A stretch of 64,000 nucleotides of DNA from an uncultured delta proteobacterium (GCA_963710455.1 CAVQAG010000005.1:24020-88019); one strand, 5' to 3'; positions 825 through 5,676 are shown, numbered from the stretch's first letter. Numbers and translations are program-made. Notes: generated by a model from the sequence alone, not told the origin.

Positions 825-3557
825 ATGGCAGACAAAGCCTTTCTAATTCGAGCGCTTCGACTCATAGAAATAGACGACAATACAAACGTACCGACCGTAC
901 TATACTACCCCTCAGGGTCGCAGGTGCTCATCGGCTCTGCTGCTCTCGCCGCAGCAGACGCGCATGATTTATTGAATGAAGATTTCAAGGTAGATCTCGG
1001 CAACATCAATCCCACTTCACGAACTGTTCGAGAGAAATTTCCCACGGCGTCAGGTATACCGAAGTCTGCAGCAGGGCTCACGTCGGATTTCTTTAACCAA
1101 GTACTCAAAGCAGTAGATCGCTGGCTTCAATTACAAGGTGTCGAAGACAACGTAGCACTCTTGCTTGCCGAACCACTATCGATGGGCGGAGAGCTCGCCT
1201 CGGAAGAGTGGCTCTCGAACTATCGGAGGAACATCGACCGTATCTTGACAGGCAGACCCGGAATAGCAGCGGTTGACTTTCTGCCAGAGCCATTTGCCGT
1301 GTTCCAGTACTACCGACACGGACGTCGACACCCGCTTCTTACAGATCAAACAAAATATAACGCCCTGGTGATGGACTTCGGCGGCGGCACGTTCGATGTG
1401 TGTATCGTCGAGACGACAAAGGAAGGTGACATCAGTAGGACACTCCGAAACTCTAAACCGCTCGCTGCGTCTTCTGAACCCATTGGCGGCTTTTATATAA
1501 ATCGTGCTCTGAGCGAAGACTTATTCAGGAGACACCTGTCGGCCTACCCAGGAAAACGGGACAGCAAGCTCGAAACGGCTATAGATATGTACAAGAAGTG
1601 GCGTCGGGATCCCGATTTCCAGCTTGGTTCCATGAGTAACGACTATCGTAATTTTGTAAAGCAATTCAATCGCGTCGTGCATGAAGTAGAACATCTAAAG
1701 CTCGCTTTGTGCTCGCAGGTTGTGGATTGGCAGATAGACGCGCCTCTGACCTTTGGCGGATCGCTCGCCCTACCCAAGAATCCCTACGCTGCGGAGACTG
1801 ATGTTATCAATGTTAAAGTAACTGCGGCGGAATTCCGTCAATTATTCGAGGAAAGAATTTGGAACAGCCATCTCAGACCCGTAATTCGAAGAGCACTCAC
1901 TCGCGGACGTCAGGAAGTAGGAGTAGCCCCACTGTCAGTCGTTCTTCTGTCAGGAGGTTCCGCGAATATAGGATGGCTTCGGACCCTCTTTCAACGGGAC
2001 TTTGCAGATGATTTGCGCGGGGCTCCAATCTTGTTGGAGCCAGATTACCAAGAGGTCGTTGCCAAAGGACTAGCGGTAGAGTGTGCTCGGCGCTTCTTTA
2101 GCGAAGGCGACTTTGCTGCAGTTACATATAATCGACTATGTTTGGTCCTTGAACCCGATAATCGTGGAAGAGAAATCAAGCCCTACACGCCACGGGAGTC
2201 GGGTCTGCCCGATGTCGGGCGAATGCCTGGGGTTCTGCTCCCTTCAGCAAGCGTGCTGAGAGCCTTTGTGGACCACCCGATGCGATGGCGCGTCAAGCTA
2301 GACCACGCTCCGAGGAGAAGGCTCGACTACCATTTTTTGCGGTCCAGTTTTGATCCTGATGACGTGCAGCAGTTACAGAATCCCGGACAGACGGTTGTTG
2401 CCACGCCAAGAGATGCGAAGTTCGGAACGGCACTGACTGTCGAGTTATCAGTACGTCAAGATGGAACAGCATCACCGCGCTTCATTTACAAGGAAGGAAG
2501 CGGGGGCAATGAGTCTTCGGCGGAAGGCAAACCGTTCTTTCTCGACATGACGTATGGAAGCAGCAAGACAGGACCGGGAGCCTATGTAGGCTTCGACTTT
2601 GGCACGAGTAATAGCGCACTGTGCTTTGTGGATTCACAGTCAATAGAAGTTTACAATCGAAGAGCCGCGGAGACTTCTTGGATTGAACTAAGCGATCTCG
2701 TAGGAGTTCTGCCTTACCCGCTTGCGGTCCCGCTGGAAAGTTACCTGAGTTGTGCGGATCCGGCGCGACTGGTGGACAAAGCGAGAGAATTTGCAGAAGC
2801 GGCGCTTGCGATGGGTGCGTACGTCGCGTTCTTAGAGCACTGCAGCAAGAAAGGCGCGCGGGAGTCGAGACTTTTCAAGGGATTTACTCAACGATCTGCA
2901 GGTCCTCTATGGGCTCTATTAAAGGAGGCCCTGCAACAGCTGGGGTCCAACGCAGTTTTAAGCGCACCGTTCCGCGAGTTGATGTCCGGGGAGCTTTACG
3001 AACTTATCAATGAGTTCGTCACATTTCTGACCCAGCAGAAGCATCAGAAGGCTTCTGAGGCGGATCGTGATCATCTGCCTCCGACGAGGGTCCTTGCCAA
3101 TGTCAGCCATACTGTATTCGCGAGAAACCGGTTCGGCTTTTTCGAGGACGTGCGAAAACGTCGCCTGGCAAGAGGGTACGAAGGTCGCTTCAGACATGCC
3201 TGTGGTCCTTCGCGATTTATAGACTTGTATCGTTATCAAGGAGAGGAAGCATTTTCTGAAGACCAGGCGTTTCTCGTAAACGCCGATGATTCAGTGGCGC
3301 TTCCTCTCGAACCGCTAGTATTATGGCATAGTTGCTCCAAACACCCGGATGCAGATATTGGCCACTGCTACCTCTTCGACACGATCAACAAAGGCATAAC
3401 GTCATACAAGGCAGTAGGGCATTCCTGCACCTTGCAGATTAGCTCGTCAGACAGTGACTTTAGAGAATTAAACGAGTATCTGAGTGCCTTCGCATCGACT
3501 GATCAGACGATAAACCCGGTGAGAATTAAGATACTTGAACCGTGGCAACGTGAGTGA
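825..3557 (+). CDS. Hsp70/actin-fold ATPase domain protein, 910 aa, with an uncharacterised C-terminal half
   Basis: Hsp70 NBD motifs appear in the canonical order:
- degenerate phosphate-1 EIDDNTN-VPTVLYY (aa 15-28)
- LLAEPLSMG
- DFLPEPFAVFQYY
- phosphate-2 MDFGGGTFDVCIVE (aa 183-196, nt 1371-1412)
- EPIGGFYINRAL
- adenosine motif VVLLSGGSANIGWL
- EPDYQEVVAKGLAVE

A second, canonical phosphate-1-like motif GFDFGTSNSALCFV lies at aa 589-602 (nt 2589-2630). No DnaK substrate-binding domain was recognised. Confidence 0.8.
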   Translation: MADKAFLIRALRLIEIDDNTNVPTVLYYPSGSQVLIGSAALAAADAHDLLNEDFKVDLGNINPTSRTVREKFPTASGIPKSAAGLTSDFFNQVLKAVDRWLQLQGVEDNVALLLAEPLSMGGELASEEWLSNYRRNIDRILTGRPGIAAVDFLPEPFAVFQYYRHGRRHPLLTDQTKYNALVMDFGGGTFDVCIVETTKEGDISRTLRNSKPLAASSEPIGGFYINRALSEDLFRRHLSAYPGKRDSKLETAIDMYKKWRRDPDFQLGSMSNDYRNFVKQFNRVVHEVEHLKLALCSQVVDWQIDAPLTFGGSLALPKNPYAAETDVINVKVTAAEFRQLFEERIWNSHLRPVIRRALTRGRQEVGVAPLSVVLLSGGSANIGWLRTLFQRDFADDLRGAPILLEPDYQEVVAKGLAVECARRFFSEGDFAAVTYNRLCLVLEPDNRGREIKPYTPRESGLPDVGRMPGVLLPSASVLRAFVDHPMRWRVKLDHAPRRRLDYHFLRSSFDPDDVQQLQNPGQTVVATPRDAKFGTALTVELSVRQDGTASPRFIYKEGSGGNESSAEGKPFFLDMTYGSSKTGPGAYVGFDFGTSNSALCFVDSQSIEVYNRRAAETSWIELSDLVGVLPYPLAVPLESYLSCADPARLVDKAREFAEAALAMGAYVAFLEHCSKKGARESRLFKGFTQRSAGPLWALLKEALQQLGSNAVLSAPFRELMSGELYELINEFVTFLTQQKHQKASEADRDHLPPTRVLANVSHTVFARNRFGFFEDVRKRRLARGYEGRFRHACGPSRFIDLYRYQGEEAFSEDQAFLVNADDSVALPLEPLVLWHSCSKHPDADIGHCYLFDTINKGITSYKAVGHSCTLQISSSDSDFRELNEYLSAFASTDQTINPVRIKILEPWQRE

Positions 3558-4018
3558 TGCTTTCTTCATGCGACGGTAGTTCGTCTGTAAAGAATCGAGT
3601 AGCGTCGGTGTTAAATCCATCTGATACTATATCAAATGGACCCCGAAATAGCTGAACATATAGAAGGCTGTTTGGCGTAGTGGCCGTTAGTGTGATGGTC
3701 TTAAAAGGGGATGACAATGAGGACCGAGCCACAACGGGATAGCCGCGCAGGTTGTTTGAAGTTGACCGAAGACTTTGCCGACCGACTCTGCAAGGTTGTC
3801 AAACCATATGCGACCGTTGAACCTGAAACGGACGTCTGCTTTCCGCGCGGCCTACGATCCCGACGAAGCGAAACTCGGAGAGAACGAGTGCATATTTCGC
3901 GACCCATTCGTTTTTCGGCTGCCGATTTTAGCTCTCCGGATGCTCAACTGATGCACTGAGGTCATCCGCAACACAGACCCGCTTTTTTTCAATGCAATGC
4001 GCCAAAATTCCCGTAGTA

Positions 4019-4045
4019 GCAGGGCAGCGATCCCTGCCGCGTTTT
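4019..4045 (+). terminator. possible intrinsic terminator in the convergent spacer
   Basis: GCAGGG-cagcgat-CCCTGC hairpin (6-bp stem) followed by CGCGTTTTG. It lies about 460 nt downstream of the Hsp70-like stop, so the assignment is weak. Confidence 0.25.
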
Positions 4046-5510: not shown

Positions 5511-5544
5511 GCTATCTACAAAATTGGTGAATTCTTCGCAGTGT

Positions 5545-5676
5545 TCAAGTTGATCGACTATTCGGCCGAAGAGATGACGGGAGAAGTATCAGCTTCCGCT
5601 CCTCGTCCTGCATCTGATGCAGCATGCGCCGGACGTAGGCGTCGAAGCGCACGAATGATTGCGGGCATTCGATCAT
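5545..5676 (-). CDS. small hypothetical ORF (43 aa) immediately upstream of the HEPN gene
   Basis: ATG at 5676 is preceded by a strong SD (AGGGGAGG, 7-nt spacing). It translates to MIECPQSFVRFDAYVRRMLHQMQDEERKLILLPSSLRPNSRST and ends at TGA 5547-5545. It is below the 60-aa cutoff of the ORF track. Confidence 0.3.
   Translation of the reverse strand: MIECPQSFVRFDAYVRRMLHQMQDEERKLILLPSSLRPNSRST

What the first reader, a model, noticed from the sequence alone, without database searches (positions are those of the whole stretch)
825..5676. Candidate new defence module: 910-aa Hsp70-fold ATPase convergent with an ApeA-like HEPN gene in the low-GC cargo of a tRNA island
Seen in sequence:
- Two large genes face each other across a 610-bp spacer in a segment of about 43-52% GC (backbone more than 60%).
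- The segment sits inside an integrase/tRNA-Arg island.
- One gene encodes a complete Hsp70/actin-fold nucleotide-binding domain with no DnaK substrate-binding domain, and no dnaJ or grpE lies nearby.
- The other gene ends in a HEPN domain with the Rx4H motif (RSTLVH).

Established knowledge: HEPN Rx4-6H proteins are RNase effectors of abortive-infection and toxin systems. ApeA is a single-gene HEPN defence system.

Inference: the Hsp70-fold ATPase may be a stand-alone or HEPN-associated NTPase sensor or effector of an undescribed anti-phage system. I do not know of a described defence system built on such a protein.
Basis: partly seen in the sequence, partly recalled or inferred. Interest (0 to 1): 0.85.

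Follow-up and report, generated by a model that had tools for sequence, protein, structure and literature searches.

The report
Stand-alone rearranged Hsp70-like ATPase gene
The 910-aa gene is an intact member of a rare, horizontally mobile family of rearranged Hsp70-like ATPases that sits alone in defence islands and conjugative elements and is a plausible but untested single-gene immunity protein, whereas the neighbouring HEPN-like gene is an unrelated, frameshifted passenger.

Summary
Both ORFs exist, but they do not form a module.

**The 910-aa gene (825-3557, +)**
- It is intact and belongs to a conserved family: 281 clusters at E<=1e-30, spread over many phyla.
- Across 68 genome loci it has no conserved neighbour.
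- It lies among variable defence and mobile genes (Hma, Bil, Zac, RM, AbiE, Shedu, Schlafen-like genes, integrases, T4SS).
- It is absent from phage collections and from PADLOC.
- The fold is Hsp70-like (Foldseek E 1e-15 to DnaK/BiP).
- All catalytic residues are conserved, but the phosphate-1 hairpin is displaced from the N-terminus to residues 586-603, just before the C-terminal half.
- That C-terminal half (helical domain plus Cys/His-rich beta domain, pLDDT 94) matches no known structure.
- A sister family keeps the same ~600-residue module, displaced hairpin included, but ends in a Fic/DOC domain. This suggests an ATP switch carrying exchangeable output modules.

**The "447-aa HEPN gene"**
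- It is the 3' part of a ~502-codon gene (5676-4167, -) broken by three 1-nt indels.
- Its intact 94%-identical copy sits in a different context elsewhere.
- The closest relative of the 910-aa protein (81% identity) has no such neighbour.
- HEPN status rests on an invariant Rx4H motif and third-party names only. No profile matched.

A defence function is inferred, not shown.

The parts
825..3557 (+). Intact 910-aa gene for a stand-alone, rearranged Hsp70-like ATPase (P0001)
   Evidence: The ORF is. More than 529 homologues of about 900-930 aa were found, and 281 clusters at E<=1e-30. The AlphaFold2 model has pLDDT 86 and pTM 0.78. Foldseek top hits are DnaK, BiP and Hsp110 at E 1e-15.
825..2120 (+). 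Residues 1-432: Hsp70-type nucleotide-binding domain that lacks the N-terminal beta1-beta2 (phosphate-1) hairpin. It keeps K55, E155, D184-G188 (phosphate-2), D191 and S376-G378 (adenosine motif).
   Evidence: hhalign aligns residues 16-419 to DnaK 30-378. The Pfam HSP70 match covers 176-198.
2133..2564 (+). Residues 437-580: beta-rich domain in the position of the Hsp70 substrate-binding beta domain
   Evidence: DSSP on the model. Foldseek alignments to DnaK/BiP constructs that include the substrate-binding beta domain are longer and have better E-values than those to targets with only the nucleotide-binding domain. This is indirect evidence.
2580..2633 (+). Residues 586-603: displaced phosphate-1 beta-hairpin AYVGFDFGTSNSALCFVD (G589, D591 and S595 invariant; N596 nearly so)
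   Evidence: HMMER aligns profile positions 581-611 to Hsc70 residues 7-32 and to the N-terminal hairpin of the actin-like protein 8r2n. The same displaced motif occurs in 9 of the 11 Fic-type sister loci.
2634..3125 (+). Residues 604-767: all-helical domain with the conserved motifs QRSxGPLW and KHxK
   Evidence: The model of the C-terminal half has pLDDT 94 and pTM 0.92. It has no significant match in PDB or BFVD.
3126..3554 (+). Residues 768-910: beta-rich domain with invariant C837, H840, H847, D852, C868 and D893, and near-invariant C848 and K862. It is possibly metal-binding and is the candidate output or effector module.
   Evidence: Conservation is, and residue identities. The fold is not recognised. 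This is the part replaced by a Fic domain in the sister family.
3558..4166 (.). 609-nt convergent intergenic spacer. Homology to the independent ApeA-like cassette (L002) ends at 4032.
   Evidence: No Rfam family was found. Terminator-like hits are at the chance level.
4167..5676 (-). ApeA-like / HEPN-like gene, disrupted. The native frame of about 502 codons is broken by 1-nt indels at codons 38, 63 and 149.
   Evidence: tblastn of the intact relatives P0122 and P0123. DNA alignment to L002. dN/dS against L002 is 0.53.
4410..4427 (-). Rx4H motif RSTLVH (R362-H367 of the 447-aa ORF), invariant in the four intact relatives
5225..5230 (-). Third frameshift: a T6 run where the intact copy has T5. 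The other two frameshifts are at 5563 (+G) and 5489/5490 (-1).
9438..10526 (+). Tyrosine-recombinase-like (integrase) ORF at the island end (context, not part of the system)
   Evidence: The ORF and its translation are. It clusters with integrase-like neighbours in other loci (cluster 3). It was not scanned against Pfam directly.
10527..10603 (-). tRNA-Arg(CCT), the putative integration site (context)
   Evidence: ARAGORN and Rfam at 67.8 bits.

Best explanation
The 910-aa gene encodes a self-contained conflict or defence protein that is carried as cargo by integrative and conjugative elements.

**Architecture (shown)**
- Residues 1 to about 603 form an Hsp70-type ATPase followed by a beta domain in the position of the Hsp70 substrate-binding domain.
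- The loop that holds the ATP phosphates (phosphate-1, D591) is not at the N-terminus. It is supplied by a hairpin at 586-603, immediately before the C-terminal half.
- All catalytic residues are conserved, the C-terminal fold is unrecognised, the gene has no conserved partner, and it sits in defence or mobile contexts.

**Mechanism (inferred)**
- The ATP site is completed by the very segment that tethers the C-terminal module. ATP binding and hydrolysis should therefore be mechanically coupled to the position or exposure of that module.
- In the sister family the C-terminal module is a Fic/DOC enzyme, which is a typical toxin-type effector. Here it is a helical domain plus a Cys/His-rich beta domain of unknown activity.
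- The proposed cycle is as follows. An infection-derived ligand (a peptide, protein or nucleic acid) is bound Hsp70-style. This changes the ATPase state, which releases or activates the C-terminal module, which then acts on a host or phage target.

**Not shown:** the defence role, the ligand, the coupling, and the activity of the C-terminal module.

The adjacent HEPN-like gene is an independent, decayed single-gene cassette and not a partner.
For: **A real, conserved, intact family**
-.

**Hsp70 fold**
-.

**Catalytic equivalents invariant or nearly so**
- K55, E155, G186-188, D191 and D591 are invariant, and D184 is conserved in at least 90% of sequences.

**Displaced phosphate-1 hairpin**
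- the profile aligns to Hsc70 residues 7-32.
- the N-terminus begins at DnaK residue 30.
- the Pfam HSP70 match of a sister protein starts at profile position 31.

**Modular swap of the C-terminus**
- The sister family is 25% identical over residues 13-599 (E 6e-34), with GIDFGTS at about 550-570.
- It then carries a Fic domain with HPFxDGNGR.

**No conserved neighbour in 68 loci**
-.

**Defence and mobile contexts**
- Embedded in Hma operons in 4 loci.
- AbiE, Shedu, mads, MTases, integrases and transposases.
- Type IIG RM, HerA-DUF4297, DndD/PbeC, ShosA and PD-T4-6.
- ZacA/ZacB and a T4SS on a Bradyrhizobium conjugative plasmid.
- Mrr and transposases.
- PLD-SNF2, an MmeI-type methyltransferase, SLFN_AlbA_2 and Fic.
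- AddAB-like genes, a SLFN-g3 helicase, CHAT and McrBC.
- An ICE with VirB8/VirB9 and an integrase.
- A Bil system.

**In the window**
- Low-GC cargo next to an integrase and tRNA-Arg.
Against: - There is no experimental evidence, and no PADLOC, Pfam or PHROG-type defence annotation.
- No recognisable effector was found. The C-terminal half has no structural match.
- Some loci are flanked by housekeeping or DNA-repair genes: SecA, MurJ and TilS, and Lhr, LigD and a DNA ligase.
- Enrichment near defence genes was not tested against a background rate. The family-scan tool returns only aggregated counts.
- I could not inspect model coordinates. That the 586-603 hairpin docks in cis into lobe IA is inferred from sequence alignment and high pLDDT, not seen.
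- The substrate-binding-domain-like nature of residues 437-580 rests on Foldseek alignment length only, and TM-scores are low (0.25-0.49).
Confidence: 0.5

Rival explanations
1. The gene serves the conjugative or integrative element itself rather than host defence. Possible roles are a chaperone or remodeller for transfer or establishment, or an anti-defence factor.
For: - The closest homologue (81% identity) lies between VirB8/VirB9-type genes and an SSB/excisionase/integrase module.
- The Bradyrhizobium copy follows a T4SS coupling protein and an LPD7 protein on a conjugative plasmid.
- The window copy is near an integrase and a tRNA.
Against: - Most of the 68 loci show no T4SS. Many copies sit inside or beside RM-like or abortive-infection systems on chromosomes.
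- Defence genes are themselves typical cargo of ICEs.
- The Fic-fused sister family looks like a toxin-type effector.
Confidence: 0.17
2. It is an accessory 'guard' subunit of neighbouring restriction-like systems (for example Hma) rather than an autonomous system. PrrC embedded in a type I RM operon, and CnuD in CoCoNuT systems, would be the analogues.
For: - In L013 and L045 the gene sits between HmaA and HmaB, on the same strand. In L013 the gaps are only 24 and 6 nt.
- In L054 it directly precedes HmaB-HmaA, and in L029 it abuts HmaA.
- In L071 a 103-aa ORF overlapping its stop resembles the N-terminus of DrmD/DrmA.
Against: - Only 4 of about 56 main-family loci have Hma. The window has no Hma, Drm or RM gene next to the gene.
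- No small downstream ORF is conserved.
Confidence: 0.12
3. It is a specialised housekeeping chaperone of the HscC or YegD type with a dedicated client.
For: - There is weak similarity to the YegD-type model PRK11678 (E 9e-5).
- NCBI names some homologues 'molecular chaperone'.
- Some loci have housekeeping neighbours.
Against: - The family was found in only about 57 of 185,579 species genomes, and the distribution is patchy across phyla.
- No neighbour is conserved, and no J-domain motif was found in the window.
- The gene lies in low-GC island cargo.
- The profile retrieves only 1691 proteins in a library of 1.84e9, so it does not merge with canonical Hsp70.
Confidence: 0.08
4. One reading: the Hsp70-fold ATPase and the ApeA-like HEPN gene form a two-gene defence module.
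For: They are adjacent and convergent in the same low-GC segment.
Against: - The pairing is not seen in any other locus.
- The HEPN-like cassette occurs with other flanks in L002 and L082.
- Convergent orientation excludes co-transcription.
- The HEPN-like gene is frameshifted three times.
Confidence: 0.03

Closest known systems
Canonical Hsp70 (DnaK, BiP, Hsc70; Pfam PF00012)
   Same: - It has the two-lobed ASKHA ATPase fold.
- It has equivalents of K70, E171, D194-G198, D201 and the adenosine motif, and of D8 in a GxDxGTxN loop.
- A beta domain and a helical region follow in the same order as the Hsp70 substrate-binding beta and alpha domains.
   Different: - The phosphate-1 hairpin is moved from residues 1-20 to 586-603.
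- Sequence similarity is marginal: Pfam gives 20.7 bits against a cut-off of 20.6, over 23 residues.
- There is an extra ~140-aa Cys/His beta domain.
- It has no J-protein or NEF partner and is a mobile island gene.
CnuD / CnuCD of type III CoCoNuT systems (Bell et al. 2024, PMC11090510)
   Same: It is an Hsp70-like nucleotide-binding and substrate-binding unit followed by a helical domain, in predicted defence systems, and often near other restriction systems.
   Different: - CnuD works with a McrB-like GTPase (CnuB), a McrC/DUF2357 homologue (CnuC) and HEPN nucleases. No such conserved neighbours occur here.
- The paper describes the CnuD Walker A-like motifs as degenerate. The catalytic set here is intact.
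- Direct sequence comparison with CnuD was not possible because I held no CnuD sequences.
HSP70 components of GTPase-centric conflict systems (Kaur et al. 2020, PMC7159879)
   Same: An Hsp70-family protein is predicted to act in a biological conflict system.
   Different: Those are multi-gene systems with DO-GTPases and tubulin, or with GAP1-N2 GTPases plus GrpE and DnaJ fusions. This protein is single-gene and has no such partners.
Fic/DOC toxins, and FICD-BiP regulation
   Same: The sister family fuses the same rearranged Hsp70 module to a Fic domain with HPFxDGNGR. FICD AMPylating BiP is a known Fic-Hsp70 functional pair; that statement rests on my own knowledge and on the PDB titles.
   Different: The window protein has no Fic motif. 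Whether the bacterial fusion modifies itself or a target is unknown.
ApeA (single-gene HEPN tRNase defence; Gao 2020; bioRxiv 10.64898/2026.01.26.701840; Anantharaman 2013, PMC3710099)
   Same: For the neighbouring gene only: a long N-terminal region followed by a C-terminal helical region with an invariant Rx4H motif. It is a stand-alone cassette, and JGI labels P0123 'Apea-like HEPN'.
   Different: - No match to the PADLOC ApeA model or to any Pfam HEPN model, for the window ORF or for four intact and four distant relatives.
- The family is tiny: 7 proteins among 5.8e9.
- The window copy is a pseudogene.
PrrC-type abortive-infection genes embedded in RM operons
   Same: A stand-alone NTPase gene is inserted inside a restriction-like operon, as seen in the four Hma loci.
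   Different: The NTPase class is different (ABC versus Hsp70-like), no HEPN or anticodon-nuclease domain is present, and embedding occurs in only a minority of loci.

Membership tests
Hsp70 / ASKHA ATPase superfamily | Phosphate-1, phosphate-2 and adenosine motifs together with the catalytic Lys and Glu | tested here: met
   All are present and conserved: D591 in GxDFGTSN, D184-G188, S376-G378, K55 and E155. Phosphate-1 is out of linear order.
Hsp70 / ASKHA ATPase superfamily | Two-lobed actin-like fold | tested here: met
   The AlphaFold2 model has pLDDT 86. Foldseek matches DnaK/BiP at E 1e-15, and nucleotide-binding-domain-only targets with TM (by target) of 0.55-0.61.
Canonical Hsp70 chaperone (PF00012 / DnaK equivalog) | Profile score above the curated cut-off | tested here: inconclusive
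   Pfam gives 20.7 bits against a cut-off of 20.6, on residues 176-198 only. NCBIfam DnaK models give 12-20 bits against cut-offs of 648-1019.
Canonical Hsp70 chaperone (PF00012 / DnaK equivalog) | Substrate-binding beta domain and alpha lid | tested here: inconclusive
   Foldseek alignments extend through these regions. There is no sequence-level match, and coordinates could not be inspected.
Canonical Hsp70 chaperone (PF00012 / DnaK equivalog) | J-domain and nucleotide-exchange co-chaperones | tested here: not met
   No J-domain motif was found in the window. No neighbour is conserved in 68 loci. GrpE was not searched for directly in the window.
CoCoNuT type III (CnuD) | Linkage to a CnuB (McrB-like NxD GTPase) and a CnuC (DUF2357) | tested here: not met
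   No such conserved neighbour was found. A single short McrBC-domain ORF lies 8 kb away in L079.
CoCoNuT type III (CnuD) | Sequence homology to CnuD | not tested
Any system in PADLOC-DB v2.0.0 | HMM match | tested here: not met
   No family matched either window protein at E<=1, nor the intact ApeA-like relatives.
Hma system | HmaA, HmaB and HmaC genes adjacent | tested here: not met
   No ORF near 825-5676 resembles the HmaA/HmaB/HmaC proteins found in other loci. They are present next to homologues in L013, L029, L045 and L054 only.
Fic/DOC | HxFx(D/E)GNGR motif or a Pfam PF02661 match | tested here: not met
   There is no Pfam Fic hit in the window protein. The motif is present in the sister family.
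HEPN superfamily (neighbouring gene) | Rx4-6H motif in a C-terminal helical region | tested here: met
   RSTLVH is present. R, H and the following G are invariant in four intact relatives.
ApeA family (neighbouring gene) | Match to an ApeA or HEPN_Apea profile | tested here: not met
   Pfam, PADLOC and NCBIfam gave no hits. A profile search of PDB sequences returned only a spurious esterase. The only support is the JGI name for P0123.
ApeA family (neighbouring gene) | Intact reading frame, tRNA anticodon cleavage, oligomeric ring | tested here: not met
   The frame is broken three times. The biochemical features cannot be tested with these tools.
tRNA-integrated genomic island | Integrase next to the tRNA 3' end, deviating GC, and a direct repeat of the tRNA end | tested here: inconclusive
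   The integrase-like ORF, the tRNA and the GC shift are confirmed. No repeat lies within the window plus 3 kb, so the far end lies outside the available sequence.

The most novel reading that the evidence does not exclude
The proposal is a new class of single-protein immune switch. It is built on a rearranged Hsp70 engine whose ATP site is completed by a hairpin (586-603) that directly tethers an exchangeable output module. That module is a Fic AMP-transferase in one branch and a structurally unprecedented Cys/His domain in this one. If so, Hsp70-style ligand capture is converted into effector release.
Probability: 0.3. Interest if true: 0.8.

Novelty: new variant of a known kind. Interest (0 to 1): 0.6.

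Why it matters
- Hsp70-like ATPases have so far been predicted only as subunits of multi-gene conflict systems (CoCoNuT CnuD, GTPase-centric systems).
- A stand-alone family would add an ATPase class to the sensors and switches of prokaryotic immunity, alongside STAND, ABC, AAA+ and SMC. 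This family has intact catalytic residues, a displaced phosphate-1 hairpin, and interchangeable C-terminal modules, one of them Fic.
- It would also be a natural experiment on Hsp70 allostery, because the nucleotide site is wired directly to the output domain.
- The C-terminal half is a confidently predicted fold with no structural relative.
- For genome annotation, the finding is a caution. Adjacency inside an island does not make a module, and the '447-aa HEPN protein' is a gene-calling artefact of a frameshifted gene.

Tried and rejected
1. **Two-gene module.** Rejected after neighbour clustering in 68 loci, the context of the 81% homologue, and the tight homology limits of the independent ApeA-like cassette.
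2. **A conserved small partner ORF downstream.** L071 has a 103-aa ORF resembling the DrmD N-terminus. Nothing comparable recurs in other loci.
3. **Known defence system.** PADLOC gave nothing.
4. **Phage-borne gene.** There is no hit in 50,697 GenBank phage records or in IMG/VR.
5. **Identity of the C-terminal half.** It was modelled separately at pLDDT 94, but Foldseek against PDB and BFVD gave nothing below E 0.07. Weak OB/SH3-like barrel hits (uL2, Rpb8, ModE) are not significant.
6. **HEPN confirmation by profiles.** Pfam, PADLOC, NCBIfam and a PDB sequence profile were all negative. An alignment-based homologue search added only four weak hits, one of which NCBI names 'HEPN domain-containing'.
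7. **A second copy of the tRNA-Arg 3' end (att).** None was found in the window plus 3 kb.
8. **Frameshifts as general assembly error.**
   - Split genes also occur elsewhere: one in the island (the sigma-54 activator at 7130-8088) and one in the backbone (the ABC exporter at about 34.1 kb).
   - Assembly error therefore cannot be fully excluded.
   - Three indels within about 340 nt is far above that rate, only one of them is in a long homopolymer, and the adjacent 2.7-kb gene is intact.
9. **Literature.** Six full-text searches found no paper describing this stand-alone family or an Hsp70-Fic fusion.
10. **Checking in 3-D that the hairpin docks into lobe IA.** This was not possible, because model coordinates are not exposed.

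Full report
**What is in the sequence**

The window has a 910-codon ATG ORF at 825-3557 (+). Convergent with it is an ORF at 4167-5510 (-), and 609 nt lie between them. GC is 52.1% over 825-5676, against 61.0% for 12001-64000. A tyrosine-recombinase-like ORF at 9438-10526 ends exactly at the 3' end of tRNA-Arg(CCT) at 10527-10603. A contig assembled from the same sample (L001) extends 3 kb further left. It is equally GC-poor and gene-poor, containing one RNase_H_2 protein and little else. No repeat of the tRNA end lies in the available sequence, so the island's far border is outside the window.

**The HEPN-like gene is a broken, independent cassette**

- Only a handful of homologues exist among 5.8 billion proteins.
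- The two close ones have 502 and 543 residues. They align to the window from an ATG at 5676, but in alternating frames.
- DNA alignment with the intact copy (L002, 94% identical) shows three 1-nt indels in the window copy: +G at about 5563 (codon 38), -1 at 5489/5490 (codon 63), and T6 instead of T5 at 5225-5230 (codon 149).
- The 447-aa ORF, and the 440-aa database protein P0121, therefore begin with about 90 out-of-frame residues and lack the true N-terminal 149.
- dN/dS against L002 is 0.53.
- Frameshift-split genes occur elsewhere in the window: the sigma-54 activator at 7130-8088 and an ABC exporter near 34.1 kb. Assembly error cannot be excluded outright. However, three indels in about 340 nt, next to an intact 2.7-kb gene, point to a pseudogene.
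- Homology between L002 and the window is confined to 5757-4032. That is the gene plus about 80 nt upstream and 135 nt downstream, and the flanks differ.
- A 29%-identical relative sits beside a NACHT-like gene.
- The invariant R-x4-H-G motif and the EALLQYVFALEAL helix fit a HEPN domain. JGI and NCBI give HEPN-type names to two relatives.
- Nevertheless Pfam, PADLOC, NCBIfam and a PDB sequence profile gave no HEPN or ApeA hit for any member.
- I therefore call it HEPN-like. Membership of the ApeA family is not established.

**The 910-aa protein belongs to a distinct, conserved, mobile family**

- A word-indexed search found more than 529 homologues, nearly all 900-930 aa and 40-60% identical. 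They come from Acidobacteriota, Verrucomicrobiota, Nitrospinota, Desulfobacterota and Alpha-, Beta- and Gammaproteobacteria.
- An exhaustive profile search of 1.84 billion cluster representatives found 281 at E<=1e-30 and only 1691 at E<=1e-3. The family therefore does not merge with canonical Hsp70.
- A scan of one genome per species (185,579 species) returned 68 loci. I read 56 of these as the main family, 11 as a sister family, and one as a fragment.
- I called ORFs in all loci and clustered them. Apart from the family itself, no cluster recurs next to the gene, either upstream or downstream.
- The gene is absent from GenBank phages and from IMG/VR.

**Neighbourhoods**

The neighbourhoods vary, but they are rich in defence and mobility genes.

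- Hma: the gene lies between HmaA and HmaB in L013 and L045, before HmaB-HmaA in L054, and beside HmaA in L029.
- AbiEi/AbiEii, Shedu SduA, mads, PDC candidates, type II MTases, integrases and transposases.
- Type IIG RM, HerA-DUF4297, DndD/PbeC, ShosA and PD-T4-6.
- Mrr and IS elements.
- PLD-SNF2, an MmeI-type MTase, a Schlafen-like protein, HSDR_N and Fic.
- AddAB-like genes, HicB, a SLFN-g3 helicase, CHAT and McrBC.
- A Bil system.
- ZacA/ZacB next to the T4SS of a Bradyrhizobium conjugative plasmid.
- The closest homologue (81% identity) lies in an ICE-like segment in this order: VirB8/VirB9, the gene, an M78 peptidase/HTH pair, SSB, an excisionase-like HTH, and an integrase. No HEPN-like gene is present.
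- Some loci are flanked by housekeeping or repair genes.
- I could not compute a background-corrected enrichment.

**Fold and motifs**

- AlphaFold2 with a 110-sequence alignment gave pLDDT 86 and pTM 0.78.
- Foldseek against PDB is dominated by full-length Hsp70s (DnaK, BiP, Hsp110; E about 1e-15). These alignments run 570-790 columns. Targets with only the nucleotide-binding domain give about 430 columns at E about 1e-11. This suggests that the beta domain (437-580) and the following helices occupy the places of the Hsp70 substrate-binding beta and alpha domains.
- hhalign places residues 16-419 on DnaK 30-378.
- The same offset is seen independently: the Pfam HSP70 match of a sister protein covers residues 19-393 against profile positions 31-372.
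- The N-terminal beta1-beta2 hairpin that carries phosphate-1 is therefore missing from the N-terminus.
- A nearly invariant GxDFGTSN hairpin lies at 586-603. HMMER aligns it to Hsc70 residues 7-32 and to the N-terminal hairpin of an actin-like protein.
- The equivalents of DnaK K70, E171, D194-G198, D201 and D8 are K55, E155, D184-G188, D191 and D591. All are invariant or nearly so. An active ATPase is thus likely, with its phosphate-1 loop supplied from 586-603.
- Whether the hairpin docks in cis could not be checked, because model coordinates are not exposed.

**The C-terminal half**

Residues 604-910 were modelled separately at pLDDT 94 and pTM 0.92. They form a helical domain with the motifs QRSxGPLW and KHxK, followed by a beta domain with invariant C837, H840, H847, D852, C868 and D893. 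Neither PDB nor BFVD contains a significant match; the best E-value is 0.07.

**The sister family**

- Eleven loci encode 1010-1110-aa proteins that align with residues 13-599 of the window protein (25% identity, E 6e-34). Nine of the eleven show the displaced GIDFGTS hairpin at about 465-575.
- Their C-terminal regions are Fic/DOC domains. All six members scanned against Pfam (five loci plus P0276) match at E 1e-15 to 1e-21, and eight of the eleven loci contain HPFxDGNGR.
- Their neighbours again include an MmeI-like MTase, a GmrSD-Schlafen fusion and transposases.
- The ~600-residue rearranged Hsp70 unit is therefore a cassette joined to alternative output modules. A conserved NTPase switch with a variable effector is the usual design of single-protein defence systems. 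That generalisation is established knowledge, used here as inference.

**Interpretation**

- The most likely reading (confidence about 0.5) is a self-contained conflict or defence protein carried as cargo of integrative and conjugative elements. In this reading, ATP binding and hydrolysis at a site completed by the 586-603 hairpin control the C-terminal module, and the trigger is bound Hsp70-style.
- Shown: the family, the fold, the motif conservation and order, the modular swap, the lack of partners, and the contexts.
- Inferred: the defence role, the ligand, the coupling, and the activity of the C-terminal module.
- Rival readings are a function for the mobile element itself, an accessory or guard role for Hma-like systems, and a specialised chaperone.

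**Comparison with what is known**

- Hsp70-like proteins have been predicted as subunits of CoCoNuT type III systems (CnuD; PMC11090510) and of GTPase-centric systems (PMC7159879).
- This family lacks their partner genes, keeps an intact catalytic set, and is not in PADLOC.
- Six full-text searches found no description of it or of Hsp70-Fic fusions.
- I rate it a new variant of a known kind. There is no experimental support yet.

Noticed in passing
L059-L069 (e.g. L060:9989-13114, L066:2479-5616) and P0276: A sister family of 1010-1110-aa proteins fuses the same rearranged Hsp70 module, displaced GIDFGTS hairpin included, to a C-terminal Fic/DOC domain with HPFxDGNGR. This architecture recalls the eukaryotic FICD-BiP pair.
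   Followed up: partly
L013:6465-20282; also L029, L045, L054: In four genomes the Hsp70-like gene is inserted in or next to an Hma operon (HmaA SNF2 helicase, HmaB DUF1156 methylase, HmaC ATPase). In L013 the intergenic gaps are only 24 and 6 nt.
   Followed up: partly
window 7130-8088 (-): A sigma-54-dependent activator is split by a frameshift inside its AAA+ domain. Sigma54_activat profile positions 1-108 are in one ORF and 129-168 in the other. It also appears to lack an N-terminal receiver domain, making it a second decayed gene in the island.
   Followed up: partly
window about 33300-35062 (+), break near 34073-34122: A backbone ABC exporter appears split. The ABC_membrane and ABC_tran domains lie in two ORFs that overlap in different frames. 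This is either a real pseudogene or an assembly indel, and it bears on how far single-base indels in this assembly can be trusted.
   Followed up: no
window 5177/5178 (L001:8201/8202): An independently assembled contig from the same run is 100% identical to window 1-5177. It then ends with 27 nt that match nothing in the window. This suggests a strain variant or rearrangement junction inside the ApeA-like gene, about 50 nt from the third frameshift.
   Followed up: partly
window 10604-12000: The segment on the other side of tRNA-Arg is also GC-poor (52.5%). Its 169-aa ORF at 10775-11284 (-) has no Pfam match. It may be a remnant of a second insertion at the same tRNA.
   Followed up: no
L071:14730-15041: On the Bradyrhizobium plasmid, a 103-aa ORF overlapping the stop of the Hsp70-like gene resembles the N-terminal ~80 residues of DrmD/DrmA (E 8e-8). 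ZacA/ZacB and a large helicase follow downstream.
   Followed up: partly
L033, L045, L052, L055, L056, L064: Several MAG copies of the Hsp70-like gene are split into two or three consecutive same-strand ORFs. These are either long-read indel errors or frequent pseudogenisation of the family.
   Followed up: no
window 9091-9423 (+): A small HTH_3 protein with an Aca2/YdiL-like match (E 6e-5) lies directly upstream of the integrase. It may be the element's repressor, or an anti-CRISPR-associated type regulator.
   Followed up: no
L078:9359-13090: In one Acidobacteriota-type contig, the Hsp70-like gene is bracketed on both sides by small CopG-antitoxin-like ORFs and an N6_Mtase fragment. The whole is inserted among housekeeping genes and looks like a minimal mobile cassette.
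   Followed up: no
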